Source: an uncultured Planctomycetota bacterium | GTDB lineage: Bacteria > Planctomycetota > Planctomycetia > Isosphaerales > Isosphaeraceae | Direction of reading: 5' to 3' | NCBI GenBank assembly: GCA_963823665.1 | Contig: CAWGMQ010000006.1 | Span: 320,001 to 384,000 of the forward strand | Length of the DNA: 64,000 bases | Shown here: positions 3,206-34,152 of the stretch, in pieces | Layout: each line of letters opens with the position of its first letter | Position numbering within the stretch: the first letter of the stretch is position 1 | Program-made: the position numbers and the translations under genes | Notes under the pieces: generated by a model | Databases searched by the model: none | Told to the model about the DNA's origin: nothing | Seen by the model: only the letters and a program-made list of their open reading frames with translations

Positions 3206-3249
3206 CGATAAGGTTGCTCTATGTCCCACTGGGAGCGAGCGCCGTGACG

Positions 3250-8573: not shown

Positions 8574-11500
8574 TCAACCGCGCGGATGGTTCGATCCCAC
8601 GCGGACCGGGCTCGGAGCCGGCAGAGGAGTCAGGTCGCCCGATACCGATAGCGCGTCGATGGCCGAGGGCGACAGGGCGGTGACGACCTGAGAGCTGGCG
8701 GCGGCCGTACTGGTTTTCACGGCCGAGCTCGATCGGACTTTGACGGCCCGAGTTTTGGCGGCCGACTTTGCGGTTTCCGCGGCAATCCTTTTCTGTCGCG
8801 CAGCCATTTTCTTTTCTGCCGCTGCGAGTTTCTTCAGCTCCACGCCGGCTTTCTTGGTTTCGGCGTGAAACAGTTTCTCTTTCCTGGCCAACTCCCTCTG
8901 TTCCGCGGCGAATAACTTGGGGGATGTGGTCTGCAATTCAGTAGCCGCACCGGCGAGGATCTCCCCCGAGAACATGTTCACGTAGTTCGTGCCGGGTGTC
9001 CCGTTTCCCGCACCGTCCAGCGCAACGCCGGTTGCACTGGTGAGCCCGCCCGGAGTCGTGCCGATGACGGTGAGCTGGTAGACCATCTGGAGATTGAGTA
9101 GCTGGGAGGGAGTCAGCGTCACGGTCAAACTTGTCGGGTCGTAAACAGCCGAGGTGATGGGGATGCTGGCGCCCGTCGAATCCACAAGCTGATAGTTGTT
9201 GAGATTTTCAGCGGGCGTTGCGTCGAGCGCCGTGCTGAAGGTCAGCACGAGCGTCGTCTGTTGCATGTGGAAGCCGAAGCGCATCAGGGACACGACCGTT
9301 GGCGCCGCGGCTGCATAAGTGAACTGGTCGGCGGTTGACGTGGGCGACGTGCCGCTCGGCGTGATCACGGTCACTGATGCGACGCCCGTGCCCGCCGGGC
9401 TCGTCGCGGTGATCGAGGTGTCGCTGACCACGGTGAAGCTCTGGGCTGCTGTGGTGCCAAAGTCGACGGCAGTCGCCCCGGTGAAACCGGTGCCGGTGAT
9501 CGTCACCACCGTGCCGCCCGAGGGTGGACCGCTGGTGGGGCTCAGGGCGGTGACCGTGGGGGCGGTGACCGCATTGAATGTGAACTGATCGGCGGCTGAA
9601 GTGGCCGAGGTGCCGAGCGGCGTCGTCACGGTGACGTCCACGGTGCCGGTGCCTGCGGGGCTGGTCGCCGTGATCGAGGTGTCGTTGACCACGACAAGAT
9701 TCGTTGCGGCCGTCGTGCCGAAGTCGACCACAGTGGCGCCGGTGAATCCTGTGCCAGTGATTGTCACCGAAGTGCCGCCGGTGGCCGGACCGCTGGTCGG
9801 GCTCAGCCCGGTGACAGTGGGGGCAGTGGCCGCCGTGTAAGTAAACTGATCAGCGGGTGAAGTGGCCGAGGTGCCGAGCGGAGTTGTCACGGTGACGTCG
9901 ACGGTGCCGGTGCCCGCCGGACTGCTCGCCGTGATCATGGTGTCGTTTACCACGACGACGCCGGTGGCGGCGGTCGTACCGAAGTCGACCGCTGTGGCGC
10001 CGGTGAAACCCGTGCCGATGATCGTCACCGGAGTGCCGCCGGCGGTCGTACCGCTGGTCGGGGTGAGCCCGGTGACAGTGGGGGCAGTGGCCGCCGTGTA
10101 AGTGAACAGATCAGCGGAGGAAGTGGGCGAGGTGCCGGCCGGAGTCGTCACGGTGACGTCCACGGTGCCGGTGCCCGCTGGGCTGTTCGCCGTGATCGTG
10201 GTGTCGCTTACCACGACGACGCCGGTGGCGGCCGTCGTACCGAAGTCAACCGCTGTGGCGCCGGTGAAACCTGTGCCGGAGATGGTGACCGGAGTTCCGC
10301 CGGCGGTGGTACCGCTTGTTGGGCTCAGGCCCGTGACCGCAGGTGCGGCGTGCGCCGTGAAAGTGAACTGGTCGGCGGGTGAAGTGGCCGAAGTGCCGGC
10401 CGGAGTCGTCACGGTGACGTCCACGGTGCCGGTGCCCGCTGGGCTGTCGGCGGTGATCTTGGTGTCGTTGACCACGACGAGGGCCGTCGCTGCCGTCGTA
10501 CCGAAGTCGACGACTGTGGCGCCCGTGAAACCCGTGCCGGTGATTGTGACCGGAGTGCCGCCGGCGGCTGGGCCGCTGGTGGGGCTCAGGCTGGTGACGG
10601 CGGGCGCAGTGACCGCGGTATAGGTGTACTGATCAGCCGAAGTGGTGGGCGAGGTTCCGGCCGGAGTTGTCACGGTGACGTTCACGGTGCCAGTGCCAGC
10701 CGGGCTGTCAACGATGATCGACGTGTCGCTGACCACGTCAAGATCAGTTCCGGCCGTCGTGCCGAAGTCGACGGTCGTGGCGCCGGTGAAACCCGTACCG
10801 GTGATCGTGACCGGAGTGCCACCGGCCGCCGTACCACTGGTGGGGCTCAGACTGGTGACTGCGGGCGCAGCCGCGGTGTAGGTGAACTGGTCGGCGGGTG
10901 AAGTGGCCGAGGTGCCGGCCGGAGTCGTCACGGTGACGTCGACGGTGCCGGTGCCCGCGGGGCTGTTGGCGGTGATCTCGGTGTCGTTGACCACGACGAG
11001 GCCCGTTGCTGCAGTCGTACCGAAGTCGACGACTGTGGCGCCGGTGAAACCCGTGCCGGTGATTGTCACCGCGGTTCCGCCGGCGGCCGGACCGCTCGTG
11101 GGGCTCAGACCGCTGACCGCAGGCGCAGTGACCGCGGTATACGTGAAAAGGTCGGCGGAGGAGGTGGGCGAGGTTCCGGCGGGAGTTGTCACGGTGACGT
11201 CGACGGTGCCGGTGCCAGCCGGGCTGTCAACGGTGATCGACGTGTCGTTGGCCACGACGAGATTCGTTGCTGCCGTCGTGCCGAAATCGACGACAGTGGC
11301 GCCTGTAAAACCTGTGCCGGTGATCGTCACGGGAGTGCCACCGGCCGCCGTACCGCTGGTGGGGCTCAGGCTGCTGACTGCGGGCGCAGTGACCGCGGTG
11401 TACGTGAACTGGTCGGAGGCGGACGTGGGCGAGGTTCCGGCGGGAGTCGTCACGGTGACGTTCTCAGTGCCGGTGCCCGCGGGGCTGTCAACGATGATCG

Positions 11501-12008
11501 ACGTGTCGTTCACCACGTTAAGATTCGTTGCTGCCGTCGTGCCGAAATCGACGACAGTGGCGCCTGTAAAACCTGTGCCGGTGATCGTCACGGGAGTGCC
11601 GCCGGCCTCCGTACCGCTGGTGGGGCTCAGGCTGGTGACTGCGGGCGCAGTGACCGCGGTATAGGTGTACTGGTCGGAGGGGTTGGTGGGCGAGGTACCG
11701 GAAGGAGCTGTCACGGTGACGTCGACAGTGCCGATGCCGGCCGAGCTGTCCACGGTAAGCGATGTATCACTGAGCACATCGAGATGTGTTCCCGCCGTCG
11801 TGCCGAAATCGACGACGGTGGCGCCGGTGAAGCCGGTGCCGGAAACCGTCACCGCAGTGCCGCCAGCCTCGGTCCCGCTGGTGGGACTCAGGCCGGTCAC
11901 CACCGGTGTGAGCAGACTTCTGGACTCCATCCTTTCGATCAGAGGCTGACGTGATTTCGAGCGCCTCAGTGTGCCGTTTCGTTGGGGACGCGCGGGGCTC
12001 GTGAGCAT
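8574..12008 (-). CDS. Exported surface protein with 10 IPT/TIG repeats, a planctomycete-type C-terminal beta domain and a Lys/Ala-rich tail
   Basis: GGAGG RBS before ATG 12008, LIERMESRSLLT export motif, 10 copies of PxVTxLSPTSG..GGTxVTITGTGFTGATxVDFG..., then RFGFHMQQTTLVLTFS. Confidence 0.92.
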   Translation of the reverse strand: MLTSPARPQRNGTLRRSKSRQPLIERMESRSLLTPVVTGLSPTSGTEAGGTAVTVSGTGFTGATVVDFGTTAGTHLDVLSDTSLTVDSSAGIGTVDVTVTAPSGTSPTNPSDQYTYTAVTAPAVTSLSPTSGTEAGGTPVTITGTGFTGATVVDFGTTAATNLNVVNDTSIIVDSPAGTGTENVTVTTPAGTSPTSASDQFTYTAVTAPAVSSLSPTSGTAAGGTPVTITGTGFTGATVVDFGTTAATNLVVANDTSITVDSPAGTGTVDVTVTTPAGTSPTSSADLFTYTAVTAPAVSGLSPTSGPAAGGTAVTITGTGFTGATVVDFGTTAATGLVVVNDTEITANSPAGTGTVDVTVTTPAGTSATSPADQFTYTAAAPAVTSLSPTSGTAAGGTPVTITGTGFTGATTVDFGTTAGTDLDVVSDTSIIVDSPAGTGTVNVTVTTPAGTSPTTSADQYTYTAVTAPAVTSLSPTSGPAAGGTPVTITGTGFTGATVVDFGTTAATALVVVNDTKITADSPAGTGTVDVTVTTPAGTSATSPADQFTFTAHAAPAVTGLSPTSGTTAGGTPVTISGTGFTGATAVDFGTTAATGVVVVSDTTITANSPAGTGTVDVTVTTPAGTSPTSSADLFTYTAATAPTVTGLTPTSGTTAGGTPVTIIGTGFTGATAVDFGTTAATGVVVVNDTMITASSPAGTGTVDVTVTTPLGTSATSPADQFTYTAATAPTVTGLSPTSGPATGGTSVTITGTGFTGATVVDFGTTAATNLVVVNDTSITATSPAGTGTVDVTVTTPLGTSATSAADQFTFNAVTAPTVTALSPTSGPPSGGTVVTITGTGFTGATAVDFGTTAAQSFTVVSDTSITATSPAGTGVASVTVITPSGTSPTSTADQFTYAAAAPTVVSLMRFGFHMQQTTLVLTFSTALDATPAENLNNYQLVDSTGASIPITSAVYDPTSLTVTLTPSQLLNLQMVYQLTVIGTTPGGLTSATGVALDGAGNGTPGTNYVNMFSGEILAGAATELQTTSPKLFAAEQRELARKEKLFHAETKKAGVELKKLAAAEKKMAARQKRIAAETAKSAAKTRAVKVRSSSAVKTSTAAASSQVVTALSPSAIDALSVSGDLTPLPAPSPVRVGSNHPRG
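9310..11905 (-). repeat. Ten tandem ~258-261 bp coding repeats (IPT/TIG)
   Basis: GTCACGGTGACGTC-like blocks and GGGCTCAG recur with ~261-bp periodicity. Confidence 0.93.
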
Positions 12009-12623
12009 TGCGATTGCCTCCAAAGCTGGCTGTTCGAGCACTGTGGAATCGGAGCTCGGGATCGCTCGAAGCCCGCATCGCCGGACGTGACTGACGAGTG
12101 ACGACTCGGACCGATGCGCTTCAAAATAACCCCGAACGCGGTGAAGACTTAAGAACGCAACCCTACTAGCACTTTACGTGCCTGTTATAGGGCCGGACGC
12201 CCCGGATCAAGTTATCGTAGAGTAACGAAAACGTTCAATCCGGAACGTAACGCGAGCCCGTCAACTTAGCCAGTGCGAACGCGAATGTAAATAGTCTAGT
12301 CAAACTGGAGTGTTTGCAGTGTTTGACATGGGTTTAACGACTTCGGTGGTCGCCCGGGTGGGGATCGTTGAAGTTTCGTAGGATGGGTGCAATCCACGAG
12401 ACGCAAAGCATTACGAAGAGGCGGGTTGCATCTACGTTGTGAGCGCGTCGATTGTGGTGCGGCCCCGGCCGGCGCTGGGGGCTCGAGTCGATTCACGCGG
12501 CAGGCGAAGTGGAGCGGGGTCTGACCGTCGCCGGCCCGGGTGTGCACGCTTTGAGGATGACACTCGCTGAGCTGCTTCGTCGAGACTTAACTGCGGGCCC
12601 AGCCGGTTTCCAACACGACGTTC

Positions 12624-12692
12624 ATGGGAGACGCGCCGGACTCAGAATCCTGGCCTCGCAAGAGCGTGTGGGTTCAAGTTCCACCTTCGGTA
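12624..12692 (+). pseudogene. 5'-truncated, degenerate tRNA-Leu(CAG) remnant (att-like scar)
   Basis: ATGGGAGACGCG-CCGGA-CTCAGAA-TCCTG, long variable arm CCTCGCAAGAG, T-arm GTGGGTTCAAGTTCCAC, acceptor 3' CTTCGGTA. The 5' acceptor strand is absent. Confidence 0.8.
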
Positions 12693-12981
12693 CTCATTGC
12701 AACGCGCGACGTGCAGAATGGGACGGACACTGCGCGGCGACGGGTGAAACTTCCCCCGCAACAGGCCCCCGCCCCGATCACATTGGAGTTATCATCTCGC
12801 ACTGTGCGTTAATCGCTGCGCACAGCAGGAAACCAGACGCCGCTTTCGATAATCGTAGCGAGCGCCGCCTGCGCGGACGAATTACCAGAAACCGCTACCA
12901 AGCTCTGGAAACAGGAACGGCCAGCGGGCGTTCGCCCCCTGGCCGTTCCACTTGAACATGGGTCGCCGACACCGCGCTCCC

Positions 12982-15074
12982 TCAATCGACGTACCAGACA
13001 TGGAATCGGATGTGCACGATGCCCGGCACGCGCAAGGCATTCACGTCAATCTTGACCCGGTTCGGAGGTAGGATCGTCAGATTGAACAGGCCGAGCCTTC
13101 TGCCGACCTCGTAGGGATTGTTAACGGCCTCCCACTGGACCGCCCGCACTTCTTTCCCGAACTGCTGCGGGAAAACGTGGGAAGTCGTTGTCGGCCCGAT
13201 GCGGATTGCATACGGATAATCGGCTTCAATTCCGAATGTCGCATCGAAGCTGGTGACCTTCAGCGCGTTGTCCTTGAGCGCCTTGATGTCGCCAACAAAA
13301 CCGGAGAGCTTCCCCTCGAAGGCAACGAGTTTCTTCTCGCCCTTCTCGAGACGACCATTCGCGGCAGCGAGGTCGTTCGTGTGTGCATCACTGACCTTGC
13401 GGAGTTGGGCGATCTTACGAGCCTGCCGTTCAACGGTTTCGGTCAGCGCGTTATTCTTGGTTTGCAGCTCCTGGAGATGTTTGGTGATCGCGAGGAAGTC
13501 CTCGTGCGGACGGGTGCGCAGCGGCAGCTCAGAAACGGAGACGTGGTCTTCGACGTCGCCGATCTCCACCCAAGAAACGACGGCCCTGGTCAGGGCACCG
13601 ATTCCACGCTCGTCGATGCGGTAGACTTGCAGGGTCTTGGCCAGGCCGTTTCCTGTCTCGAAGACGCCCTTACGCTGGTAGTGCAGTTTGGCCGCGGCCT
13701 CCGTCAGGCGATCGGAATCGTTGAGGAAATATTCACGGCTCTCGCTGAATCTCTTCCATTCTACGTCCGAGAGCTGGTCCGTCTCCTTGTTAAGTGAAAG
13801 GGAGAGGCTACCGCCGAAGATCCCGAAACTGGCGCTCGTCTTCCCTCGACCATTAAACTTTTCGCGAAGCTCGTGGTGTGCCTTACGGTCATCTTTGTGC
13901 TCGCGGAACACGTCCTGGATCGCGCGCAATGCTTCCTTCGCCTTGTGGAAATTCTCCTCGTCCTTCACTTCCTCGAAAAGCTGGTCGCGCGTCAGGATCG
14001 GCAAGGCCTCAACCTTTCCGTTCGCGACCGTAAAGACCTTGTCGCCCGCGGACCTGTCGAGCAGGTCGATCAGGTCATGCGCCGGGAGCTGGAGCTGTCC
14101 GAAAGAACCCAATGCCTGCTGATTCATCTTCTCCCGGATAGCCTCCAACTTCATTGGGTCGAGGTCGTTGCTCTCGAAGTAATGGACCATAGCCTGGGCA
14201 AGCCGGGTCATGATGTCACCGAGTACGGCTCGATCAACCCAGAGTTCGGAAGGAGCGTGCCCGGGGTCCGAGGGCTGGACGATTTCCTTGACAACCTCCC
14301 AGGCGCGACCTGTCATGGCCGTGACCGCGTGATAGAATGTGACCCGCTCGAACTCGTAGATGCAACGGACCTGGAGCATGGCATATTCGGGCTCACGCTC
14401 GAGCAGCCGACGCAGGCCGACCATCGTTTCAGGGACCTGGAAGACGATGCTCTTGTGATTTGTCGGAGCGATCGTGCCGTTCGGACCTCCGGTTTCCCCC
14501 GACGTGAGCTCCTGGTCCGGCCCGGCACCGCGAAGGATAATCTCGTAGGATCTCATGGCCATCGGCTCGAGATGAACGAAGTCGGCGCCCAGCTCTTTTT
14601 TGAGTTCCTCCTGTTTGGCCTTGAGGATCGTCACCGGCAAGGTGAAGTCCAGGACCGAGCGGAATTCGCGGGACTCCGGATTGTAGCTATGGGAAACGAC
14701 GCGAATCGGCAGCTCGTACTCGTAAAACTTACGAGGCGCTGATCCCTCGTCGTCGAGGAGCGGGCCGTAAATCGGCACGGGGCGCCCATCGAAGAACATC
14801 GTTTCGGTGTGCCTGACTGAGGGCTTGCCCGCGCGCCCTTCGCGGCACCAGGCCGCGGCTTCGCGACGCCAGGATAGGACGCCCTTCCAGGCTCGACCGC
14901 CGCAGCATTTGGAGTCGGTGTGGCGGCCTCTGCCTTCGGCAACGTCTCCGCCGCCGAAGCGTGCCAAGCCAAAAGACGCAGGCCAGCCACTCCCGTCACG
15001 GCCAACCCGATCGCCGCGAGCGCGATCGCCAGCGGCAACCGCCGGGATTTCAACATTCTACAATTCCTCACCAT
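12982..15074 (-). CDS. Secreted or membrane-anchored hypothetical protein (~697 aa) with a glycine-rich beta-hairpin-like segment, coiled coil and C-terminal beta domain; 1 frameshift
   Basis: ATG 15074 has a GAGGT RBS and a hydrophobic signal segment (ORF 14631-15074). It joins ORF 12982-14967 through a shift at ~14830-14960. Contains GKTSASFGIFGGSLSLSL and heptad-rich LQELQTKNNALTETVE. Confidence 0.7.
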
Positions 15075-15145
15075 GGGTGTGACCTCTTTGGGTAAGCTAT
15101 CGAACCGTGGGCATGCCTCGAGAGCCGAGGCATGCCCACATCGAT

Positions 15146-15526
15146 TCAGTTAATGGTGACCTTCACAGCGGTCCCAAGCGGGATGCCGCGGAACCGCACT
15201 TTGACGGTCCCAACGCAATCGCACGTACGGATGACGGTGTAGCGGACCAACCGGTCTTGATGCTGCCGGCCATCTGCGCCGAAGTACAAGACTTCGCCGT
15301 CGATGGAAGAACCTCCGATTGGTGTCGCGGTGATTGTGTAAGTCACCGCACCGGCGTGGGCCCCGACCTGGTACCAGCGTCCGAAGACATTCGGACCAGC
15401 CTGGACGATGTGGTCCTCGGCGTGGGCGGTCGAGACAGGACCGGCCATGCCCGCCAGCAACGTCAGGCACGCCACCAAGGCGGTAATCGAGTGTTTCGGC
15501 GATCGAAACAAGTTCAGCTTCAGCAT
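15146..15526 (-). CDS. Small secreted all-beta protein, possibly related to the colicin Z C-terminal domain
   Basis: RBS AGGGGGT, signal peptide ending AHA, mature ~90 aa with GPNVFGRW..H.GAVTYTI and VKVRFRGIPLGTAV. The family assignment is from memory only. Confidence 0.7.
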   Translation of the reverse strand: MLKLNLFRSPKHSITALVACLTLLAGMAGPVSTAHAEDHIVQAGPNVFGRWYQVGAHAGAVTYTITATPIGGSSIDGEVLYFGADGRQHQDRLVRYTVIRTCDCVGTVKVRFRGIPLGTAVKVTIN

Positions 15527-15599
15527 TCGAGACACCCCCTAAAGAAATTGTCAGCGACCGGGCAGGAACCAGCGTGCGCGTCGGTCGACGTGCGCGCCC

Positions 15600-15791
15600 T
15601 CAGAACTGGTGCCCCAAGCCGCCTTGCGGGCAATGGTGCAGCCCTAAATGTCCAGGATTATCACTGCATTGGAATTGGTGTATCGGGCATCGCGCGACGC
15701 ACCTGCCAATCAGCCAGGCCGCGTGCGCGGTCACACCGAGTGAAAGGCCGAGGAGTGCGAGGATCAGCGTCCGCTTCCACACATACTGCAT
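15600..15791 (-). CDS. Small secreted Cys/His-rich peptide (63 aa)
   Basis: Strong RBS AAGGAGGT, signal peptide ending AHA, mature part with 4 Cys and 5 His (CVARC..FQC..GHLGLHHC..GH). Confidence 0.75.
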   Translation of the reverse strand: MQYVWKRTLILALLGLSLGVTAHAAWLIGRCVARCPIHQFQCSDNPGHLGLHHCPQGGLGHQF

Positions 15792-16165
15792 CGAACACCT
15801 CCTTCAAGACGAGTTGTTAAAGAGGCGAGGCTCTGCGACCCCGACCACGATGGCCTAGGTCGAGGGCGCGGGCATCCAGTTGCCCGGCGTAGTGAAGACC
15901 CGCTGCCTTCACCTTCCACCTGACCCCCTTCATTTCGATAATCGTTCGGAGGGGACAGACCACGGATCCGACGCCCTCAAAAGGGCAGCGCGCGTCGCGG
16001 ACGTCGCCCGATGATGCCGCCACTCGCGGGGAGGGAGTACACCTCCCTAACGGCGCGGGGGGTCGTTACGATGGAAGGGCGCTAATGTGCACTACAAGTC
16101 TTGGCTACCGGCCGTGACGGCGTTAGGCTGCGCTGCGGCTTTGGGAGTCACGTGGAGATCAGGGG

Positions 16166-16813
16166 ATGAGCGGCGAGCGGACGGTAGACTCCCACGGACC
16201 AAGCGACCGGACGACGGCCCTGATGGGGCTGATCCAGCGGATCAAGCAGGGCGATCAGCAGGCGGTGAACGAGCTGATCGCGCTGGCTTACAATCGCATC
16301 CGCAAGGTTTCGGCCAAGATCCTGCACTCATCGAGCTTCGATGCCGTCACGCCGAAGCTCTACCAGACCGAGGACGTGGCCCAAGAGGCCTCGGTCCGCC
16401 TGATTGCAAGGCTTCGCAAGGTCCCCGTGGAGGACGTCGATCACCTGTTCGGATTGACTGGCATGATCGTCCGGCGCTACCTGCTCGACCTGGTGAGACG
16501 GGGCTCGATTGCCAACCTTAACTCCCAGGACCAAGCGGGTCTGGTTGCCCCTGATGGAGGGGGGACGTCGTCGTTCGAGGGGGCCCAGAAGATGGTTGCC
16601 GTGCTGGAAGGCATCGAGGCGCTCCCGGAGAAGCTGCGTCAAGTCGCCGACCGGATCCTCACCCTTGGCCTGTCTCAGGACGAGATCGCCGAGCAGATGG
16701 GCGTGAAGAGGGAGACGATCAAGAGGCAATGGCAGAGGGCCCGTATCCGTCTGGCGCAAGCCCTCCGGCCGAACTCGACCGGGCCCGAAGCCGGCCCGAC
16801 AGGTACTCCTTGA
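16166..16813 (+). CDS. ECF-type sigma-70 factor (planctomycete kinase-associated type)
   Basis: GDQQAVNELI, QTEDVAQEA (sigma2), LPEKLRQV..GLSQDEIAEQMGV..TIKRQWQRARIRL (sigma4). Its stop abuts the kinase ATG. Confidence 0.9.
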   Translation: MSGERTVDSHGPSDRTTALMGLIQRIKQGDQQAVNELIALAYNRIRKVSAKILHSSSFDAVTPKLYQTEDVAQEASVRLIARLRKVPVEDVDHLFGLTGMIVRRYLLDLVRRGSIANLNSQDQAGLVAPDGGGTSSFEGAQKMVAVLEGIEALPEKLRQVADRILTLGLSQDEIAEQMGVKRETIKRQWQRARIRLAQALRPNSTGPEAGPTGTP

Positions 16814-19800
16814 ATGATCGACCACGCGCGGTTGGAAGACCTGCTCGAACGGTGTCTAGAACTCCTCGACGACGGGATCGAACCGACTCGGCATGTGGTC
16901 GACGTAGCGCTCACCCCGGAGGAGTGGGATGAGCTCGCGCCGCGGCTCGCCGCCCTTAGACATGTGAACGACGGAGCGGCGGCACTGAACCCGTTCCACG
17001 CGGGCAACGCGGACAGGCGGCCCGCCCGTCCGGCGGCCCCGGCCTGGCATCAGGGGGACGAGCCGATTAGGGGCTATACCGTCCAGGAAGATGCGCCCAG
17101 GTCCCGTGGTGGCTCGGGGGAAGTTTGGTTGGCGAAGACCTCGGGGGGAGTTCGGGCCGCCCTGAAGCGCGTCCGTCTCGATCCGAACCGCCCCCTGGGA
17201 CAGCGCGAACTCGAGTCGCTCGAGCACGTCGAGACTTTGCGCCACGCCCACCTGCTGCCGATCCTGGCTTGGAAACACGATGGGGACGACGACGGCCGCG
17301 GTGGGGAGCTGGTCATTGCCATGGAGTGGGCCGACGAAGACCTGGAATCATATCGTTTGCGGCATGGCAGGGTTCCGGTCGATGAGCTCCTCAGGTTCAT
17401 GCAGGAAATCGCCGAGGGGCTCGATTATCTGAGGGCGAGCATGTCGGGCTGCGACAAGCGTGGTGTTGGCATCCACGGCGACGTCAAGCCGAGGAACCTG
17501 ATGATGGTCAACAATTCCATCAAGGTGGGGGACTTCGGTCTGGCCAGGGTCGTCACTCGCGGCTCAGCCGAGAGCGGCCCTTCGGCCATGACGCGGCGTT
17601 ACGCGGCCCCGGAGTGGTACCTGGGCCAGGAGTCGCCGCTCGCCGACCAGTACAGCCTGGGTCTCTCTTACTACGAGCTGAGGACAGGCCGTCACCCGTT
17701 CGATGAGTATAATGAGCAGATCCGCGCGGGGCTGATCTGCAGGAGATCCTTCAGGGCGCACGTCCAGACCAATTGCCCTCGCCGAAGGCAGAGGGTCTTT
17801 CCTTGTTGCGGGAGCCCGAGCGCATGGCGCTGGCCCGCGCCCTGGCCACAGGACCGGAAGAGCGTTACGCGACCTGCTGCGATTTTGTCCACGCGCTGCA
17901 AGACGCATGCAAGTCACCTTACGTTGCCCATACCCACACGCAACTGCCCTGCAACCTGCCGCTGGCCTCCATCGGCATGCTCTTCAAAGGGCGGGAGGCA
18001 TTCCTCGGCGAACTGCGAACCAGGTTCGGCACACCTGACGGCCGGGCGACGGCGATCGTGAACCGGCTGGCCGTGCACGGCCTCGGGGGCGTGGGCAAGA
18101 CGCGAACCGCGATCGAGTATGCCTGGCAACATGCCGATGAGTATACGGCCCTGCTGTTCGTTTCCGCTCCCTCCGCCGCCGAGCTCCGCGCCAACCTGGC
18201 CAACCTGGTCGAGGTGCTGGGGACGACTGCCGAAGGGACGTCAGTCGACCACCAACTCGCGGATGTCCTCAACTGGCTCGGCACCCATCCTGGCTGGCTG
18301 CTGATCATAGACAGCGTCGACACCGACGCGGCAGCGAGCGAGACCGAACGGCTGCTGGCGCAGCTCCGTGCTGGGCACGTGCTGATCACCTCGCGGATCG
18401 CCAACTGGAGTGCGGCGGTCGAGCCCTTGGAGCTAGACCTCCTGGCCCCGACCGAGGCGGTGGCCTTCCTGCTGGAGCGGACGCCACACCGCCTCCAGGC
18501 AGCCGACGATGCGGCTCGGGCCGGTGCCATCGCCCGCGAGTTGGACGGGTTGGTCTTGGCGTTGGAGCAGGCTGGGGCTTACATCGACACGCTACGGCTC
18601 TCATTCGCGGAGTATCTCCAGCGCTGGGAGGCCAAGCGGCACGAGGCGCTCAAGTGGCACGACCCGCGGCTGATGCAGTGTCCGGCCAGCGTGGCGGCGA
18701 CCTGGGAGACAACCTTCGCCCAGTTGGCCGAACCGGAGCAACGGCTGCTGGAAGTGCTGGCCTGGCTGGCACCGGAGCCGATCCCGCTCTTTCTCTTCGA
18801 GGCCGCGCCGCTCTTGGCGGCGATCCCCGACCCGCGCCAATCGCTCGCGGGCCTCGCGGGCTACTCCCTGGCACGATTCGATGCGGCGGGCGACGCGGTC
18901 CTGGTCCATCGGCTGGTGCAGGAGATCGGGCGGCGGCGACAGGCCCCAGCCGATCCCAAGGCGGGACTGAGGCTCGCCCTGAACTCAGTGGATGCGGTCG
19001 CGGTAGACAACCCGGAAGACATTCGGACCTGGCCCATCTGGAACCCGCTGGCACCACACGCGGCAGCAGTCACTCGACATGCGGATGCTGTGGGCCTCGT
19101 CGATCCGACCGTGCGGCTCATGATTCTACTGGGCACGTACCTGACTTTTCGCGGGCAGTTCTCCCGAGCAGAGCCACTGTCTCGCCGCGCCCTCGCCATC
19201 GCCGAGGACCGTTACGGCTCCGACCATCACAACGTCGCCGCCGCCCTCAACAACCTGGCGATTTTGCTCCGGGAGACCAACCGGCTGGGCGAGGCCGAGC
19301 CGCTCTGCCGCCGCGCCCTGGCGATTCGGGAGCGAAGTCTCGGCCCCGACCATCCAGCCGTCGCCACCGCTCTCAACAACTTGGCGATTTTGCTCAAGGA
19401 CACCAACCGGCTGGGCGAGGCCGAGCCGCACTTCCGCCGTGCCCTGGCGATTGGGGAGCAAAGCCTTGGCCCCGCCCATCCCGAGGTCGCCCACGCTCTC
19501 AATAGCCTGGCGATTTTGCTCCGGGACACCAACCGGCTGGGCGAGGCCGAGCCGCTCTTCCGCCGCGCCCTGGCGATCGCCGAGCACAGCTATGGCCCCA
19601 ACCATCCTACCGTCGCCATGCAACTCAACAACCTGGCGAATTTGCTTCGGGAAGCGAACCGGCCAGGCGAGGTCGAGCCGCTCCACCGCCGCGCCCTGAC
19701 CATTCTCGAGCACAGCTACGGCCCCGACCATCCAATGGTCGCCAGAGCTCTCAAAAGCCTGGTGAATTTGCTTCGGGAGACCAACCGGCCGGGCGAGGCG

Positions 19801-21126
19801 GAGCCGCTCTGCCGCCGCGCCCTGGCGATCGCCGAGCACAGCTACGGTCCCAACCATCCCGAGGTCGCCAGCGCTCTCAACGACTTGGCGACTTTGCTCC
19901 TGGAGACCAACCGGCCGGGCGAGGCGGAGCCGCTCTACCGACGTGCCATGACCATCGCCCTGGACGAGCCATGGCCCCGCTCATCCCAAGTTCGCCACCG
20001 CTGTCTACAACCTGGGGGCTTTCCTTCAACACACCAACCGGCTGGATGACGTGGAGCTGCTCTACCTCAACGCGCTCGATATCTGGGAGCGAAGTCTCGG
20101 CCCCGACCATCCCAAGGTCGCCACCGCCCTCAACAGCCTTGCGAATTTGCTCGGGGACACCAACCGGCTGAGCGAGGCGGAGCCGCTCTACCGCCGGGCC
20201 CTGGCGATTGCCGAGCACAGCTACGGACCCGACCATTCCGAGGTCGCGATAAAACTCCACAACCTGGCGCTGATGCTCAGGAAGACCAACCGGCTGAGCG
20301 AGGCCGAGCTGCTCTGCCGTCGTGCCCTGGCGATTCGGGAGCAAAGCCTTGGCCCGGACCATCCCGAGGTCGCCGCCTCCCTCAACAGCCTTGCGAATTT
20401 GCTCGGGGACACCAATCGGCCGAGCGAGGCGGAGCCGCTGTACCGCCGCGCCGTGGCGATTGCCGAGCACAGCTACGGCCCCGACCATCCCGAGGTTGCT
20501 TTCCCACTGAACAACCTGGCGCTGCTGCTCCGGCAGACCAACCGGCTGAGCGAGGCCGAGCTGCTCTGCCGCCGTGCCTTGGCGATTCGGGAGCAAAGCC
20601 TTGGCCCGGACCATCCCAAGGTCGCCGCCGCTCTCAGCAACCTGGCGGGGTTGCTGATGGCCACGAACCGGCCGGCCGAGGCCGAGCCACTGTACCGTCG
20701 GTCGCTGGCGATCGACGAGCGGTCCTATGGTCCCGAACACGAGAAAGTCTTCCACGACCTCAACAACCTAGCGGGACTGCTGCGGGAAACCAAGCGGTTG
20801 GCTGAGGCTGAGCCTCTGTATCGGCGGGCATTGGCAATCTGGCGGAGAACCGCCTCGGTCCCGACCAGCCAACCGTGGCCACCTCCCTCAACAACCTAGC
20901 GGGATTGCTGCGGGACACCAACCGGCAGGGCGAGGCCGAGCCGTTGTATCGGCGCCAGATGGAAATCTTCCGCATGTTCACCGAGGCGATCGGCCACGGG
21001 CATCCCCACCACCACGCCTCCATTGGAAACGACATCAGCCTGCTCGATGCCATGGGCCGGACACCCGACTAGATCGAGCAAGGGGTCCACGAGTTGATCG
21101 GCCCAGCGGATTCTGAGGGCTCCTGA
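16814..21126 (+). CDS. Ser/Thr kinase - NB-ARC (STAND) NTPase - TPR fusion (NLR-like); 3 frameshifts and a late in-frame TAG
   Basis: Kinase motifs GGSGEVW, AALK, HGDVKPRN, DFG, YAAPE. NB-ARC motifs GLGGVGKT, WLLIIDSVD, VLITSR, GLVLALEQAGAYI, VHRLVQ. About 15 42-aa TPRs follow. Shifts at ~17730 (G run), ~19960 (C run) and ~20840; TAG at 21070 with the frame open to TGA 21126. Confidence 0.82.
19110..21000 (+). repeat. ~15 tandem 126-bp coding repeats (42-aa TPR)
   Basis: ACCAACCGG...GAGGCCGAGCCGCTC recurs every 126 bp. Confidence 0.9.
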
Positions 21127-21558
21127 CGCCGGAAATCATCGAGCGACGGATGAGAGCGGGCAAGGGCTGCGGCCCCGCGATGGGTCGCTGTCGCGCCGGC
21201 CGGTCCCGACCTTCAGGCCGGACCTCGGGCCTCTGGCAGGGTAGTCAGTCTGCCTTCGGCACCTCGACCTCAATCGTCTCAGCACAATCGCCACGCACCA
21301 GGTTCGCCTCGGGCTTCGCCGAGGCGTTCTGTCGGGGTTACGGGGCAGGTGAACCTGGTTTATCGCCCGGGTCTGCGCTCGCGGTCGATCTCCTCCTCGA
21401 CAGACGGAGCTTGCCCCCTTCCCGTCGTGGTCACTCACGATTCTCGGGCTGGGTCAAGATGACTTCGCCGCATCGTCGGTTTGACGGGATGGAGAGTCCA
21501 CCATCGAGCGAGCCGCTCGGGTTCCGGTCGGACATATCCGCCTGTACGGGCCTTCATT

Positions 21559-21726
21559 TTGGTAACAAATTGGTAACGGCATTGGCAACATCAGCCCAAC
21601 ATGGCTACAAGATTGCCGGGTCGAGGCTGTATTGTCGCCGCCTCGAAATCAAGCAATTCAAGTCTCACCGCAACTTGTTGCCGATATCACGGCGATGGCA
21701 GAGGTTCCGGACTCAAAATCCGGTCC
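21559..21726 (+). repeat. att-like unit 1: three TTGG(T/C)AAC direct repeats plus a tRNA-Leu(CAA) D/anticodon-arm fragment
   Basis: TTGGTAAC at 21559 and 21570, TTGGCAAC at 21582; ATGGCAGAGGTTCCGGACTCAAAATCCGGTCC at 21695-21726. Confidence 0.75.
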
Positions 21727-21977
21727 ATCGTCGCCGGGCAGTTCGATCCGATTCCATGCGGCCCGTCCCGATACCTCGTCTACCACGATCAGCGTGAAGC
21801 CATCGCAGCTCTTCGAGATATTGGTAGGGGCGGCCGAGTTGCAGTTCCGCGGCACCAAAACGGTGGCAAACCACAGAAAAACAATACCGAAAAACTTTCG
21901 AAATCCTGGAAAACGGCAGCCCTTGGTATATCGCATTTAACTGGTTACCGAGAAAGGCGTTGTGTCAGACTGAACCT

Positions 21978-22024
21978 CCTGGTTTGCAACCAGGAGGTTG
22001 GCGGCTCGATCCCGCTGGTCTCCA
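21978..22024 (+). pseudogene. 3' half of tRNA-Ala(UGC) (att-like scar)
   Basis: Anticodon arm CCTGG-TTTGCAA-CCAGG, T-arm GCGGCTCGATCCCGC, 3' end TGGTCTCCA. No D-arm or 5' acceptor strand. Confidence 0.82.
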
Positions 22025-22370
22025 TTTAACACCAATCAGACGTTCAACTTACGTCAGCTAATTGCTTCGGTGAGCTTCTGCTCCGGATTGACCATCGAAT
22101 GGAAGCGGCGTGGAATTGTCCCGTGATTCTGCGGGTTTTTCATTAGCGCGAGCGCCTGGGTGAGTACCAGGCGCTCTCCGGATCTCCAACTCGACAGTCG
22201 CCTTGCTACCTGAATCTCGCCCCGCCTTGCCGGGATCGCCGAGATTCATGTTGCCCGACGCAAGGTGGCCGCATAGCAGCGAAGCACTCTGCCCCGTCCG
22301 AATTGTCGCGACGGGGGTTCTCGCGTTGATCGTGCGATCGCTTCCCCCCGAACGTCCCGTTCCCTCCATG

Positions 22371-22407
22371 TTGGCCGATCTTCGTCCGGAGCGGTATTCT
22401 TGACCTC
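22371..22407 (+). promoter_or_regulatory. Leaderless sigma70-type promoter of the ECF gene (also at ~27127 and ~33459)
   Basis: TTGGCC-18 nt-TATTCT-7 nt-ATG, conserved before all three ECF copies; no SD sequence. Confidence 0.6.
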
Positions 22408-22995
22408 ATGAACAACGAGGTCACCCGCATTCTTGGCGCCATTGAAGCGGGAAGCCCGCAAGCCGCCGAACGGCTACTGCCGCTGGTCTACGACGAGCTG
22501 CGCAGGCTGGCGGCGGCGCACATGGCGAACGAGGCGAGCGGCCATACCCTGTGCGCAACGGCTTTGGTTCACGAGGCCTATCTGAGACTGGTGGGAGATC
22601 AGCAGTTCAACAACCGGGGCCACTTCTTTGCGGCGGCATCTGAGGCCATGCGGCGCGTGCTGGTCGACCATGCTCGCAACCGCAAGCGGTTGCGGAGAGG
22701 CGGTCCGTCGCGATGGCGGGAGGAGCTTGAGCTCGACGCCGTGGCCCGGCTCGACGCCTCGCCCGACGACCTGCTCGACCTCGACGCCGCCCTTTCCCGG
22801 CTTGAGCGAGAAGACCCCCGCGCCGCCTCCTTGGTAAAGCTCCGTATGTTCGCCGGATTGACCCAGGACGAAGCGGCGACCGCGTTGGGTGTCGTCCGTC
22901 GGACCGCCGACCGCGACTGGGCATTCGCACGCGCCTGGCTATTTCGCCAGCTTTCGGAGAATTCATGTCGCACGGCGGAGCCAGACGGAGCATGA
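22408..22995 (+). CDS. ECF sigma factor, TIGR02999/ECF43-like, copy 1
   Basis: EVTRILGAIEAG..AAERLLPLVYDELRRLAA, HTLCATALVHEAYLRL, RTADRDWAFARAWL. Confidence 0.93.
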   Translation: MNNEVTRILGAIEAGSPQAAERLLPLVYDELRRLAAAHMANEASGHTLCATALVHEAYLRLVGDQQFNNRGHFFAAASEAMRRVLVDHARNRKRLRRGGPSRWREELELDAVARLDASPDDLLDLDAALSRLEREDPRAASLVKLRMFAGLTQDEAATALGVVRRTADRDWAFARAWLFRQLSENSCRTAEPDGA

Positions 22996-23064
22996 CGATG
23001 AGGAGGCCGCTTTCGGGCCTCCGATCCAGAGTCGTTCCGAGCCGATCCCGAGGAGTCGACGCCC

Positions 23065-26000
23065 ATGACTTCGCCCGACCCCGACCTGAAGAGCTTATTC
23101 TGTGAAGCCCTCGAGCGGCCAGGCGGCCCCGAGCGGGACGCGTACCTCGAGGACGCATGTCGCGGCAACCCGGCGCTCAAAGCGGGAGTCGAGGAGCTAC
23201 TGGTGGCCCACGACCAGGCAGGCCGCTTCCTCGCACAAGGCCCGCAGCGCCCAGTCGCTGACGGTTCAAAGACCCTCGACGCCACCGTCACCGATGAGCC
23301 GTCGATTGCCACCAATGCGGCGGAAACGATTGCGGCCGAAACACACGATTTGGCACGAACTTCCGCCTCGGAAACGCTCGCCTTCGCGGAGAATGGGTCT
23401 GGCACCACGAACTCCACAACCGTCGCCTCAGGGCGGAAAAACCTTCCTGGCGGGTTCGTCCCGGGTCAGGTCATTGCGCTGCGGTACACCCTGCGAAGCC
23501 TGCTCGGCGAAGGGGGCCTGGGGACCGTCTACCTGGCCGAACAGACCGAGCCGGTCAAACGCCAGGTCGCACTCAAGTTGATCAAGCTTGGCATGGACTC
23601 GCGCACGGTCCTGGCCCGGTTCGACGCCGAACGCCAGGCGCTGGCGCTGATGGATCACCCGAACATCGCCCGCGTTTACGACGGAGGCACCACCGAAACC
23701 GGCCAGCCGTTCTTCGTGATGGAACTGGTGAACGGCCTGCCGATCACGGATTACTGCGACCGCAAACGGCTGCCGGTTCGCGCTCGGCTGGAGCTGTTCA
23801 TGGCCGTTTGCCAGGCGGTGCAGCATGCCCATCAAAAAGGAATCATCCACCGCGACCTCAAGCCTTCGAACGTGATGGTCACCGAGGTCGACGGCCATCC
23901 CACGCCCAAGGTCATCGATTTCGGCGTGGCCAAGGCCACGGAGTTCGACCTGACCGACCAAAGCCTGGGCGATACGGGAGCGATCGTCGGCACGCCTACC
24001 TATATGTCGCCCGAGCAAGCAGACCCGTCGTCGATGGACATCGACACACGGACCGACGTCTATGCGCTGGGCGTGATCCTCTACGAGTTGCTCGCCGGCT
24101 CGCCGCCGCTGAATGCATCGCAGTTCAAGCGAGGTGCGCTCTTGGAGATGCTGCGCATGGTGCGGGAGGTGGACCCGCCCCGTCCGAGCACGAAAGTGAG
24201 CACGGCGGAAGGGCTGCCCAACATCGCGGCCGGTCGCAGCATCGATCCGGCGCAATTGAAGCGAGCATTGACAGGTGATCTTGACTGGATCGTGATGAAG
24301 GCCCTGGAGAAGGACCGCACGCGGCGGTACGAGACAGCCAACGGCTTCGCCGCCGACATCAATAGGCACCTCTCGTTCGAGCCGGTACTGGCTGCGCCGC
24401 CGAGTCGGGTCTACCGAACGAAGAAATTCGTCCGCAAGCATCGCAACGGGGTGCTCGCGGCCAGCCTGGTGCTGCTGTCGCTGCTGGGCGGGTTGGCCGC
24501 CGTGGCGGCAGTGCAGACGGCGGCCAACGCCACGCTCGCCGCCTCGCTGACGAGAGAAACGAAAGCGAACACGGCCCTGAATGAAGCCAACGGCCAGCTC
24601 ACCAAATCACGTGCGGCCGTGGAGGCGCGGTACAAGCTGGCAACGGACGCGATCAAGACATTTCACACCGGCGTGAGTGAGGACTTCCTGCTCAAGGAGG
24701 AGAAATTCAAGGAGCTGCGCAACCGGCTGTTGAAATCGGCCTCGGACTTCTACGGCAAGCTCGGCGCCCTGCTCGGCAAGGAGACCGACATCGCCTCACG
24801 GCGGGCCCTGGCGCAGTCGAACTTCGAGCTGGCTGACCTGACGGCCAAAGTCGGCCGCAACGAGGACGCCCTGGCGGCGCATAATGCGGTGCTGGCGGCG
24901 CGTGAGGCACTGGCGGCCGAGCCGGGAGCGGGCACCCTAGCCAAAGTCGACGTCGGGCGCAGCTTCATCGCGGTCGCAGGGCTGCTCGAAGCGACCGGCA
25001 AGACGGACGAGGCGCTGGCGTCTTACCGGCGGTCAGAGTCACTGCTGGCCGTCCCAGCGGGTGCCGATCCGTCGGCGCGGGCCGCGCTGGCGGACTGCCG
25101 GTCGCAAATGGGTGGGCTCCTAACGGCCACGGGCAAGTCCGCCGCCGCCCTGGCGGCCTTCCGGCTGGCGCGGGCCGACCAGGAGGCGCTGGCCGCCGCT
25201 CCCGAAGCCTCCAACGACGCCCGCTACGACCTGGCGAACACGGTCCTCCATCTCGGCGCCCTGCTGGGGGCGACGGGCAAGGGGTCAGAGGAGGAGGCCG
25301 AGTTCCGCCGGGCGCTGGCGCTCTTCCAGAAGCTGGCCGACGACAACCCCGCCGTCACCAAATTCCGTAGCAGCCTGGCCTGGAGCCACAACAGCCTCGG
25401 GCAGGTGCTGATGGGCTCAGGCAGGACATCGGACGCGGAGGCCGAGCTCCGCAAGGGGCTGGCGCTCTACAAGAAGCTGGCCGACGACAACCCCGCCGTC
25501 ACCGACTTCCGCAGCGAGCTGACCGGGACCCACGACCACCTCGGCTTTTTGCTGTGGAACACGGGCAGGCTGGCGGAAGCGGAGGCCGAGCTCCGCAACG
25601 CGCTGGCGCTCGTGCAAAAGCTGGCCCACGACAACCCCACCGACACCGGCTTCCGCAGCCAATTGGCGCAAACCCACTTCGTCCTCGGTCACGTGTTGTC
25701 GGACATGGGCAAGCCAGTCGCGGCGGAGGCCGAGTACCGCGAGTCGCTGTCGATCCGGCAGAAGCTGGCCGACGACAACCCCGCCGTCACCTGGTCCCGC
25801 TTCAGCCTGGGGCACAGTCACTACTTCCTCGGCGCCCTGCTGTCGAAGACGGGCAAGCCGGCGGAATCGGAGGCCGAGTTCCGCAAGGCGATGGCGCTCT
25901 ACCAGAAGCTGGACGACGACGAGCCCGTCCGCACCGACTTCCGCCACTATCTGTCGTGGAGTCACCGCGCGCTCGCCGAACTGCTGTCGAAGACGGGCAA

Positions 26001-26820: not shown

Positions 26821-27163
26821 CCGCGTGTCTGGGATGAGATGGATCAGCCCGCGAGAGCACCAGAGGTGGGGCCAGAGTCCGGGTCGGGCAACCCACCAAA
26901 GCCGCCGACCTGCCGCGGGCAGTGGAGCTGTGGGATAAATTTAGAAGGTCTTCATTCGTAGAATGGTATCTATCCATTTGTGGCTAGACTCCATCATGTC
27001 GTGCCCGGAGCCGCCGATTTTTCACGCCCAATGCAAAATGGCTGCCTGGCTCGGTTCCCTATATACTTGCGATGAGCTTCATGCAGGACGGGATCCCTTT
27101 CCACGGAACGTCCCGTTCCCTACGTGTTGGCCGATCATCGCCCGGGCCGGTATTCTTGACCTC

Positions 27164-27751
27164 ATGAAGAACGCGCTCACCCGCATCCTCGGCGCCATTG
27201 AAGCTGGAAACCCGCAAGCCGCCGATCGGTTACTGCCGCTGGTATACGAGGAGCTGCGCAAGCTGGCGGCCGCACACATGGCGAACGAGGCTGGTGACCA
27301 TACCCTGTGCGCAACGGCTTTGGTTCACGAGGCCTATCTGCGGCTGGTGGGAGATCAGCAGTTCAACAACCGAGGTCATTTCTTCGCCGCGGCGTCTGAG
27401 GCCATGCGGCGCGTGCTGGTCGACCATGCTCGCAACCGCAAGCGGCTTCGAAGGGGCGGTCCTTCGCGACGGCGCGATGAGCTTGAACTCGACGCCGTGG
27501 CTCGGCTCGACGCTTCGCCGGACGACTTGCTCGACCTCGACGCCGCCCTTTCCCGGCTTGAGCGAGAAGACCCCCGCGCCGCCTCGTTGGTCAAGCTACG
27601 AATGTTCGCCGGACTGACCCAGGATGAAGCGGCGACCGCGTTGGGGGTGGTCCGTCGGACAGCCGACCGCGACTGGGCCTTCGCACGCGCCTGGCTTTTT
27701 CGGCAACTTTCGGAGAATTCATGTCGCACGGCGGAGCCAGACGGAGCATGA
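27164..27751 (+). CDS. ECF sigma factor, TIGR02999/ECF43-like, copy 2
   Basis: Near-identical to copy 1; start placed at ATG 27164 by alignment with it. Confidence 0.93.
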   Translation: MKNALTRILGAIEAGNPQAADRLLPLVYEELRKLAAAHMANEAGDHTLCATALVHEAYLRLVGDQQFNNRGHFFAAASEAMRRVLVDHARNRKRLRRGGPSRRRDELELDAVARLDASPDDLLDLDAALSRLEREDPRAASLVKLRMFAGLTQDEAATALGVVRRTADRDWAFARAWLFRQLSENSCRTAEPDGA

Positions 27752-27820
27752 CGATGAGAAGGCCGTTTTCGGGCCTCCGATCCTGAGTCGTTCCGAGCCG
27801 ATCCCGAGGAGTCGACGCCC

Positions 27821-31582: not shown

Positions 31583-31596
31583 CCGCGTGTCTGGGA

Positions 31597-31640
31597 TGGG
31601 ACGGAAACAGGGACGCGGACGGAAACAAGGACGCGACCAG
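31597..31640 (+). repeat. Short tandem repeat GGACGGAAACA(G/A)GGACG x2 (second copy at 38071-38110)
   Basis: Directly visible just after the stop codons of kinase copies 2 and 3. Confidence 0.75.
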
Positions 31641-34089: not shown

Positions 34090-34152
34090 GGAGGCCGCTT
34101 TCGGGCCCCCGATCCAGAGTCGTTCCGAGCCGATCCCGAGGAGTGGACGCCC

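What the first reader, a model, noticed from the sequence alone, without database searches (positions are those of the whole stretch)
12982..21126. NLR-like kinase-NB-ARC-TPR receptor coupled to an ECF sigma factor, with a divergent operon of secreted putative effectors
Seen: the sigma stop abuts a gene encoding a Ser/Thr kinase, a complete NB-ARC motif set and ~15 TPRs, with no TM helix. Head-to-head with it lie three co-oriented genes that all have signal peptides: a 63-aa Cys/His peptide, a 126-aa beta protein and a ~697-aa protein. The block is bounded by tRNA-Leu scars. Established: STAND/NLR proteins oligomerise on ligand binding and activate N-terminal effectors, and some ECFs are switched on by phosphorylation (Vibrio PknT/EcfP). 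Inference: a cytoplasmic pattern-recognition receptor whose output is transcription of secreted antagonistic proteins rather than cell suicide, analogous to NLR-kinase-antimicrobial-peptide signalling.
Basis: partly seen in the sequence, partly recalled or inferred. Interest (0 to 1): 0.85.

Follow-up and report, generated by a model that had tools for sequence, protein, structure and literature searches.

The report
NLR-type sensor wired to sigma factor
A soil planctomycete has replaced the usual membrane sensor of a common kinase-and-sigma-factor switch with an immune-receptor-like (NLR) module, so a signal inside the cell may switch genes on rather than kill the cell; the parts are known, the wiring is rare and untested.

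Summary
The anatomy holds. An ECF sigma abuts a kinase–STAND(NB-ARC-like)–TPR gene with no membrane helix, and three signal-peptide genes face away. Short-read contigs from two studies restore the kinase/STAND frame, so the fusion is real. Two TPR breaks and one break in the 697-aa gene are unresolved; the TAG is genuine but removes only 18 residues. The sigma/kinase pair belongs to a common planctomycete family (20 of 25 relatives precede a kinase). The STAND-TPR module normally carries DUF4062/TIR-type effectors; a kinase occurs in 2 of 120 protein hits and 0 of 51 genome loci, and those two kinases are of another clade. A complex model docks the kinase's N-terminal helices on sigma region 4 (0.65, best control 0.00). 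The scan noted a related ECF43/kinase-STAND-TPR in an acidobacterium. Verdict: new variant of a known kind.

The parts
12624..12692 (+). tRNA-Leu(CAA)-derived fragment (tRNA nt 15-83), att-like scar at the left edge
   Evidence: 91% identical over 69 nt to the intact tRNA-Leu(CAA) on contig C8; not a tRNA gene
12914..12949 (-). 17-bp hairpin just downstream of the operon's last stop; probable terminator
   Evidence: inverted repeat I10, 94% complementary; function inferred from position
12982..15074 (-). About 697-aa secreted orphan in two frames (break between about 14800 and 14960): signal peptide, beta/alpha core with an amphipathic-looking hairpin, coiled coil, small C-terminal beta domain
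   Evidence: no homologue; no family beyond weak coiled-coil hits; Atlas lead only; model unusable, pLDDT 36
15146..15526 (-). 126-aa secreted beta jelly-roll, distant relative of the colicin Z C-terminal domain family
   Evidence: NF041262 25.5 bits against cut-off 50; 133 relatives; model pLDDT 89.5; best Z 9.2, rmsd 2.2, 86 aligned, to a subtilisin C-terminal jelly-roll
15600..15791 (-). 63-aa ORF: signal peptide plus about 35-aa mature peptide with 4 Cys and 6 His
   Evidence: no family; one marginal match, E 0.0035, in 120 family genomes
15792..16165 (.). 374-nt divergent intergenic region; presumed promoters
   Evidence: position only; no sigma-70 consensus here and no family motif found
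16166..16813 (+). ECF sigma factor of a planctomycete kinase-linked family (family consensus WEQTDD in region 2.2; here YQTED)
16814..17005 (+). N-terminal helical segment of the receptor (residues 1-64), predicted to dock on sigma region 4
   Evidence: conserved in partner kinases; interface residues 8-64
17075..17910 (+). Hanks-type Ser/Thr kinase domain (non-RD, HGD); assembly frameshift at 17727
   Evidence: PF00069; motifs; extra base in contigs of runs X1 and X3
17950..19130 (+). STAND/AP-ATPase (NB-ARC-like) module with winged helix
   Evidence: motifs; NF040586 331.9 bits; 67% paralogue on C10 with a DUF4062-like head
19150..21072 (+). About 15 highly similar 42-residue TPRs, two unresolved frame breaks (about 19960 and 20845), ending at TAG 21070-21072
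   Evidence: TAG seen unchanged in run X2 record 14
21540..21726 (+). Conserved arm of about 150 bp plus tRNA-Leu(CAA) nt 15-46: att-like scar at the right edge
   Evidence: (D8)
21977..22025 (+). 3' fragment of a different tRNA (anticodon TGC, Ala-like)
   Evidence: match overlaps a tRNA at C10:1169261-1169333; anticodon read

Best explanation
This is a sigma/kinase signalling pair of a common planctomycete family whose sensor has been swapped. The kinase kept its sigma-binding N-terminal helices. In place of a membrane helix and periplasmic sensor it acquired a STAND-TPR (bacterial NLR-type) module that elsewhere carries DUF4062, TIR/SEFIR, nuclease or protease heads. Shown: the fusion, the parts, their usual partners. 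Modelled: helices 8-64 bind sigma region 4. Inferred: they hold the sigma inactive or present it to the kinase; a cytoplasmic ligand binds the TPRs, the STAND oligomerises, the kinases trans-activate, and the sigma is released or phosphorylated at a site other than the EcfP one (the family-conserved Thr68 or a linker Ser/Thr). It then transcribes its own operon and probably the divergent exported genes. The 9-kb unit probably arrived as one island between successive att-like scars.
For: Frame restored by contigs of two studies. Kinase next to the sigma in 20 of 25 related loci. The nearest pair (G032) has the same sigma family, the same kinase clade, a membrane helix and a divergent signal-peptide gene. 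Complex model: score 0.65, best of 3 controls 0.00; mark reached by 116 of 157 solved and 2 of 215 mismatched pairs; runs agree in at least 55% of contacts; partner pLDDT at least 65. The partner-kinase profile matches PknS (9EED) from profile position 27, into the N-terminal extension. STAND relatives: DUF4062-like head in 18 of 25 family loci; TIR/SEFIR/nuclease-type heads by eye among 26 more. Repeats vary at a few helix-A positions. Divergent genes with export signals in 8 of 25 related loci.
Against: No second genome shows this combination: no kinase upstream in 0 of 51 STAND loci; the two fused database proteins have kinases only 27-34% identical and their neighbours could not be read. 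Two TPR breaks and a real nonsense codon fit early decay. The complex pass may come from likeness to solved sigma/anti-sigma complexes, and my own 16-row alignments were used. Thr68 is not among the confident interface residues. No promoter motif. 8 of 15 partner kinases showed no membrane helix in the stretch read, so a cytoplasmic kinase is not unique here.
Confidence: 0.5

Rival explanations
1. A decaying or never-functional chimera: a recent domain graft on an island that is now eroding, like other sigma/kinase paralogues of this genome.
For: The TAG replaces a Gln/Glu/Asp codon (27 of 27 homologues where the motif could be parsed, of 120) and is real in run X2. The two TPR breaks shift the repeat spacing by +1 and +2 and are not in obvious homopolymers. 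No orthologous block in 120 family genomes.
Against: The one break that contigs clearly cover is an assembly error. Unrelated genes in the window are also split across frames (for example 53133-55066), as expected of a long-read assembly. All catalytic motifs are intact. Intact P0042 ends even earlier than the TAG. GC3 is 0.79-0.81 across the sigma, kinase and STAND coding frames.
Confidence: 0.2
2. A non-immune cytoplasmic sensor: the STAND-TPR senses a metabolite, peptide or stress (as MalT, GutR or AfsR do) and drives the sigma; the divergent proteins are adhesins or binding proteins, or unrelated cargo.
For: Defence and non-defence STAND clades are interspersed (PMC13581612 section 5). No PADLOC model matches the STAND-TPR. 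Divergent genes of related sigmas include thioredoxins (4 of 25) and a lectin-like protein. The 126-aa fold is a generic binding jelly-roll; the colicin Z paper assigns the C-terminus to receptor binding, not killing.
Against: The nearest STAND relatives carry effector heads typical of conflict systems. The repeats have the high internal identity described for NLR sensors (passage). One 126-aa relative sits at the C-terminal tip of an RHS protein (P0210).
Confidence: 0.2
3. An ordinary abortive-infection NLR: the kinase is a toxic effector that phosphorylates host proteins on infection (Stk2- or PD-T4-6-like), and the sigma only controls expression or is a passenger.
For: The module's usual heads are cell-damaging effector types. 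The kinase scores against defence-kinase models, though any Hanks kinase does.
Against: The kinase retains the sigma-partner N-terminal helices and is translationally coupled to the sigma; the model places these helices on the sigma.
Confidence: 0.1

Closest known systems
ECF43 sigma/kinase pairs: EcfK-PknS (Xanthomonas citri; PMC13147305) and EcfP-PknT (Vibrio parahaemolyticus; via PMC8999054)
   Same: Adjacent ECF and Hanks kinase with an N-terminal helical extension and TPRs; no separate anti-sigma gene; EcfK output is anti-predator defence (T6SS).
   Different: PknS spans the membrane with periplasmic TPRs; here a STAND replaces the membrane helix. This sigma scores 68.7 against the TIGR02999 cut-off of 126 and has Glu at the ECF43 phospho-Thr.
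Planctomycete kinase-associated ECF groups ECF59-62/ECF217 (PMC7826278)
   Same: Same phylum, same gene order, kinase instead of anti-sigma; acidic DAED-like motif with a nearby Ser/Thr, as PMC8999054 describes for non-ECF43 groups.
   Different: I could not assign the group number; none is described with a STAND-TPR kinase in the passages I read.
Bacterial NB-ARC/TPR NLR-like proteins (bioRxiv 10.1101/2020.01.06.895854; defence STANDs of PMC13581612; NCBIfam NF040586)
   Same: Variable head, STAND and highly similar TPR repeats.
   Different: The head is a sigma-partner kinase, implying transcription rather than NADase, nuclease or pore-forming output.
STAND transcription regulators MalT, GutR, AfsR (named in PMC13581612 references; mechanisms recalled)
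   Same: STAND plus TPR-like sensor controlling transcription.
   Different: They carry their own DNA-binding domain; here output would pass through a kinase and a separate sigma.
Colicin Z C-terminal / colicin Js-like domain (NF041262; PMC6668396)
   Same: Detectable similarity over the whole 87-position model for the 126-aa protein.
   Different: Score is half the cut-off; has a signal peptide; no translocation or catalytic domain and no immunity gene identified.

Membership tests
ECF sigma factor | Sigma regions 2 and 4 only; family HMM above cut-off | tested here: met
   PF07638 64.6 > 21.1, PF08281 35.2 > 25.7; TIGR02937 67.4 > 42.9
ECF43 (EcfP/EcfK type) | Non-acidic region 2.2 motif with phospho-Thr at the third position | tested here: not met
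   QTED aligns with xATA/xPTA of TIGR02999-type sigmas; Glu at the third position; TIGR02999 68.7 < 126.15
Kinase-associated planctomycete ECF groups (ECF59-62, 217) | Ser/Thr kinase gene adjacent, no anti-sigma gene | tested here: met
   Abutting kinase here; 20 of 25 related loci
Kinase-associated planctomycete ECF groups (ECF59-62, 217) | Assignment to a numbered group by its HMM | not testable with these tools
   No ECF group models held; supplement of PMC7826278 gave no text
Kinase-activated ECF | Direct phosphorylation of the sigma by the kinase | not testable with these tools
   Needs biochemistry; Thr at motif position 2 in 22 of 25 relatives
Hanks-type Ser/Thr kinase | VAxK, alphaC Glu, HxDxKPxN, DFG, APE | tested here: met
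   PF00069 90 > 31.7; alignment
Bacterial NLR (STAND + repeats, broad sense) | Head domain, STAND NTPase, superstructure-forming repeats in one chain | tested here: met
   head/STAND frame restored; continuity through the last TPRs unresolved
Pfam NB-ARC (PF00931) | Score above gathering threshold | tested here: not met
   15.2 < 23.5; intact relative P0042 also scores below, 16.8
Bacterial NLR (functional) | Ligand-induced oligomerisation and defence phenotype | not testable with these tools
   No PADLOC match for the STAND-TPR
FxSxx-COOH system (FxsT) | NF040586 above cut-off | tested here: met
   331.9 > 300
FxSxx-COOH system (FxsT) | Neighbouring FxSxx peptide and radical SAM genes (recalled) | tested here: not met
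   None among the scanned neighbours
Colicin Z C-terminal domain family (NF041262) | Score above 50 bits | tested here: not met
   25.5 bits; 15 of 28 relatives hit it, all below cut-off, best 40.7
Aerolysin/ETX-MTX2 pore-forming toxins (697-aa protein) | Family HMM or fold match | tested here: inconclusive
   No Pfam hit; Atlas nearest named clusters 0.78-0.79, lead only; no usable model
tRNA-targeted genomic island | Direct repeats of the tRNA end flanking the block | tested here: inconclusive
   Same-orientation fragments at both edges, but the right one is only 32 nt, the intact tRNA is on another contig, and many copies exist
tRNA-targeted genomic island | Integrase gene in the element | tested here: not met
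   No integrase among the block's ORFs

The most novel reading that the evidence does not exclude
A bacterial NLR whose output is an inducible secreted counter-attack rather than cell death: the TPR array recognises an invader-derived molecule, the oligomerised non-RD kinase frees its tethered sigma, and the sigma induces a binding jelly-roll, a Cys/His peptide and a pore-forming-type protein against predators or competitors. The same sigma-docking helices would explain the unassigned N-terminal extension of PknS-type kinases generally, and kinase grafts onto this STAND module would have arisen at least twice.
Probability: 0.2. Interest if true: 0.85.

Novelty: new variant of a known kind. Interest (0 to 1): 0.55.

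Why it matters
Characterised bacterial defence STANDs act through enzymes or pores that damage the infected cell. A STAND wired to a sigma factor through a kinase would be an intracellular receptor with a transcriptional output, the logic of animal and plant NLR/kinase signalling. It also shows how such wiring arises, by swapping a membrane sensor for an NLR module at a modular junction. The predicted docking of the kinase's N-terminal helices on sigma region 4 gives a directly testable role for a segment that was disordered and unexplained in the PknS structure.

Tried and rejected
Promoter motif: a two-box sampler on 22 related upstream regions gave nothing usable; this region scored no better than shuffles (81 and 12 of 100 shuffles reached it). 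Homologues of the 697-aa protein: none (0 of 120); four marginal short hits at E about 0.007 in 300 phylum genomes, treated as chance. Its single-sequence model (pLDDT 36) was not fold-searched. A resemblance of its core to C1q-tailed Daphnia/rotifer proteins is recalled only and could not be tested. The metagenome scan with the kinase gave 5 distant loci, 29-37%. The genome scan with P0042 gave 31 loci; one had the STAND (with a DUF4062 head) and none had kinase plus STAND. I could not confirm the earlier acidobacterial note: 14 STAND loci in 201 genomes of one acidobacterial family and one further locus had no kinase. The one family relative of the 126-aa protein (G058) has no sigma, kinase or STAND nearby. 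Two plasmid searches found no colicin record, only a Bacillus hypothetical and chance hits. No RNA holder listed. Reads gave no row for the breaks at about 14870, 19960 and 20845, but cover there is not shown (112 pieces not listed), so this is no evidence either way. The pN/pS of 0.44/0.39 at seven repeat positions uses positions picked after seeing them vary, so I do not count it as selection. Not in print as far as searched; supplement searches had no hits (one file of about 4 million characters may be cut); the supplement of PMC7826278 was unreadable and bioRxiv supplements are closed, and either may list this architecture.
Full report
Setting. The window is G000:C6:320001-384000 of a 16.46-Mb assembly in 12 contigs, 91.9% complete. 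The many PF07638 sigma/kinase pairs and named homologues (Isosphaeraceae, Aquisphaera) point to a planctomycete; that assignment is inference. Several unrelated genes in the window are split across frames, as in long-read assemblies.

The observation. The sigma (16166-16813), kinase, STAND motifs and TPR array are present, the sigma stop abuts the kinase start, and no membrane helix is found. The receptor is interrupted at about 17727, 19960 and 20845. Near-identical contigs from runs X1 and X3 (two studies, depth 4.3 and 2) carry one extra base at 17727, which joins kinase and STAND in frame; run X2 spans 20962-21112 with no difference, so the TAG at 21070 is real. That codon is Gln, Glu or Asp in the 27 of 120 homologues where the motif could be parsed. 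It removes 18 residues after the last repeat, and intact P0042 ends earlier still. The other two breaks, and one in the 697-aa gene, are unresolved. The three divergent ORFs have hydrophobic N-termini and coding-like GC3.

The sigma/kinase half is ordinary. The best relatives in 120 family genomes are 32-40% identical. Of 25 related loci, 20 have a kinase as the next gene. Kinase-linked ECF groups in planctomycetes are published (PMC7826278, passages). The closest pair has the same kinase clade followed by a membrane helix; 7 of 15 partner kinases showed one in the stretch read, while some are short and cytoplasmic. In region 2.2 the family has Thr at motif position 2 (22 of 25) and Asp/Glu at position 3 (17 of 25). 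In EcfP the phosphorylated Thr is position 3 (PMC8999054 section 12), and the alignment puts this sigma's Glu there. The proposed site is therefore not the EcfP site, and the sigma resembles the constitutive T51E form of EcfK. Thr68 or linker residues remain possible targets, since EcfK is also activated at a linker Thr (PMC13147305, passages).

The STAND-TPR half is also ordinary, but belongs with other heads. Among the best 120 of 2,394 long homologues, about 73 carry DUF4062 by my count and 2 carry a kinase (label checked). Those two kinases are 27-34% identical to this one while their STAND regions are 54-64% identical, which suggests separate grafts. In genomes, 18 of 25 family loci have a DUF4062-like head and none a kinase (two rows are one locus). 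Among 26 further loci from the class and from one acidobacterial family, heads looked like TIR, SEFIR, nuclease or helical domains by eye, and none was a kinase. A 67% paralogue in this genome has the DUF4062-like head. So the finding is a rare join of two common modules.

Coupling. The receptor's first 64 residues match the helical extension shared by partner kinases. A profile of these kinases matches PDB 9EED from profile position 27; 9EED is PknS, whose first 81 residues were disordered and predicted to form three to four helices of unknown role (PMC13147305, passages). The complex model of kinase 1-304 with sigma 13-204 scored 0.65 against a best control of 0.00; the mark was reached by 116 of 157 solved and 2 of 215 mismatched pairs, runs agreed in at least 55% of contacts, and partner pLDDT was at least 65. 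The confident interface is kinase 8-64 on sigma 138-147, 164-172 and 189-201. From recalled structures this is the region-4 surface that binds the beta-flap and anti-sigma factors. The model supports binding but does not show it, and may pass by likeness to solved sigma/anti-sigma complexes. It suggests a tether that inhibits or presents the sigma.

Output. Divergent genes are common beside this sigma family; by eye 8 of 25 have a signal peptide or the planctomycete LExRxL export motif (label recalled) and 4 are thioredoxins. This makes regulation of the divergent operon plausible, but no promoter motif was recovered. The 126-aa protein has 133 relatives, folds as a jelly-roll (best Z 9.2, close to what common arrangements give) and hits the colicin Z C-terminal model at half the cut-off. 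That part of colicin Z is thought to bind the receptor (PMC6668396, passages). One relative tips an RHS protein and one follows a caspase. It was found in 0 of 400 phylum and 1 of 120 family genomes. The 697-aa protein is an orphan; its only lead is an Atlas neighbourhood of hypothetical proteins at 0.86-0.87 with aerolysin/ETX clusters at 0.78-0.79, a level that shuffled proteins can reach. The peptide has no family. Antagonism is possible, not shown.

Scars. Nucleotides 15-83 of tRNA-Leu(CAA) recur at 12624 (91%), 21695 and 32783 (nt 15-46 only) and 38634, most behind a conserved arm of about 150 bp; the intact gene is on contig C8. The left-scar query had 26 matches. The block sits between successive att-like sites and its divergent half is lower in GC (0.58-0.62 against 0.64-0.69), consistent with one acquired unit, but there is no integrase and the pair is not unique.

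Comparison and novelty. It works like EcfK-PknS with the sensor moved inside, and it is built like a bacterial NB-ARC/TPR NLR (bioRxiv 10.1101/2020.01.06.895854, passages). It is not ECF43 and not an FxSxx system. ECF-linked transcriptional output in conflict systems has been proposed for other architectures (PMC8195603, passages). A survey of planctomycete kinases gave no NB-ARC hit in text or supplement (PMC11032199), and the 2026 STAND survey gave no kinase-effector passage (PMC13581612, passages, section 5 and supplement search). PMC8103513 was read as passages; Iyer et al. 2020 was seen only through reviews; the bNACHT preprint only as a listing. Two notes on this genome describe divergent promoters and decaying sigma/kinase paralogues.

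Verdict. Observation largely right; interpretation right on fusion and probable sigma coupling, wrong on the phosphosite equivalence, open on ligand, regulon and antagonism. New variant of a known kind; interest 0.55.

Noticed in passing
window 12624, 21695, 32783, 38634 and about 20 places on other contigs: Dispersed copies of tRNA-Leu(CAA) nt 15-83, usually behind a conserved arm of about 150 bp with short direct repeats, far from the intact tRNA: att-like ends of a prolific element family or a tRNA-derived repeat.
   Followed up: partly
window 21540-38175: Three paralogous TIGR02999-type sigma plus membrane kinase-TPR cassettes, 85-90% identical at DNA level, two preceded by the same scar block. 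Their sigmas have Thr at the ECF43 site.
   Followed up: partly
window 3214-8474: A large gene in several frames: alpha/beta-hydrolase-like start, CHAT (caspase-like) domain and C-terminal phospholipase D; conflict-system-like.
   Followed up: no
window 8574-12041: 1155-aa exported protein with ten IPT/TIG repeats and a Lys/Ala-rich tail.
   Followed up: no
G000:C10:735400-743800 (L011 5416-13790): Nucleoside-phosphorylase-like head plus STAND fused to a double zinc-ribbon/beta-propeller region, followed by a tubulin-like gene: resembles an NTP-dependent ternary conflict system (label recalled).
   Followed up: no
L125 9931-11177 (G032): Divergent from the closest sigma/kinase pair lies a signal-peptide gene in pieces with a nuclease-like stretch and a glycine-zipper-like tail.
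   Followed up: no
window 17474-17482; P0010; P0042: All three kinase-STAND fusions are non-RD kinases (HGD, HCD, HCD), a trait recalled for plant and animal immune receptor kinases; but 4 of 15 ordinary partner kinases are also HCD.
   Followed up: partly
P0154 (562 aa): The colicin-Z-C-like domain ends a secreted multidomain protein of no known family.
   Followed up: no
window 53133-55066: Gamma-glutamyltransferase-like gene split across two frames, one of several likely assembly indels.
   Followed up: no
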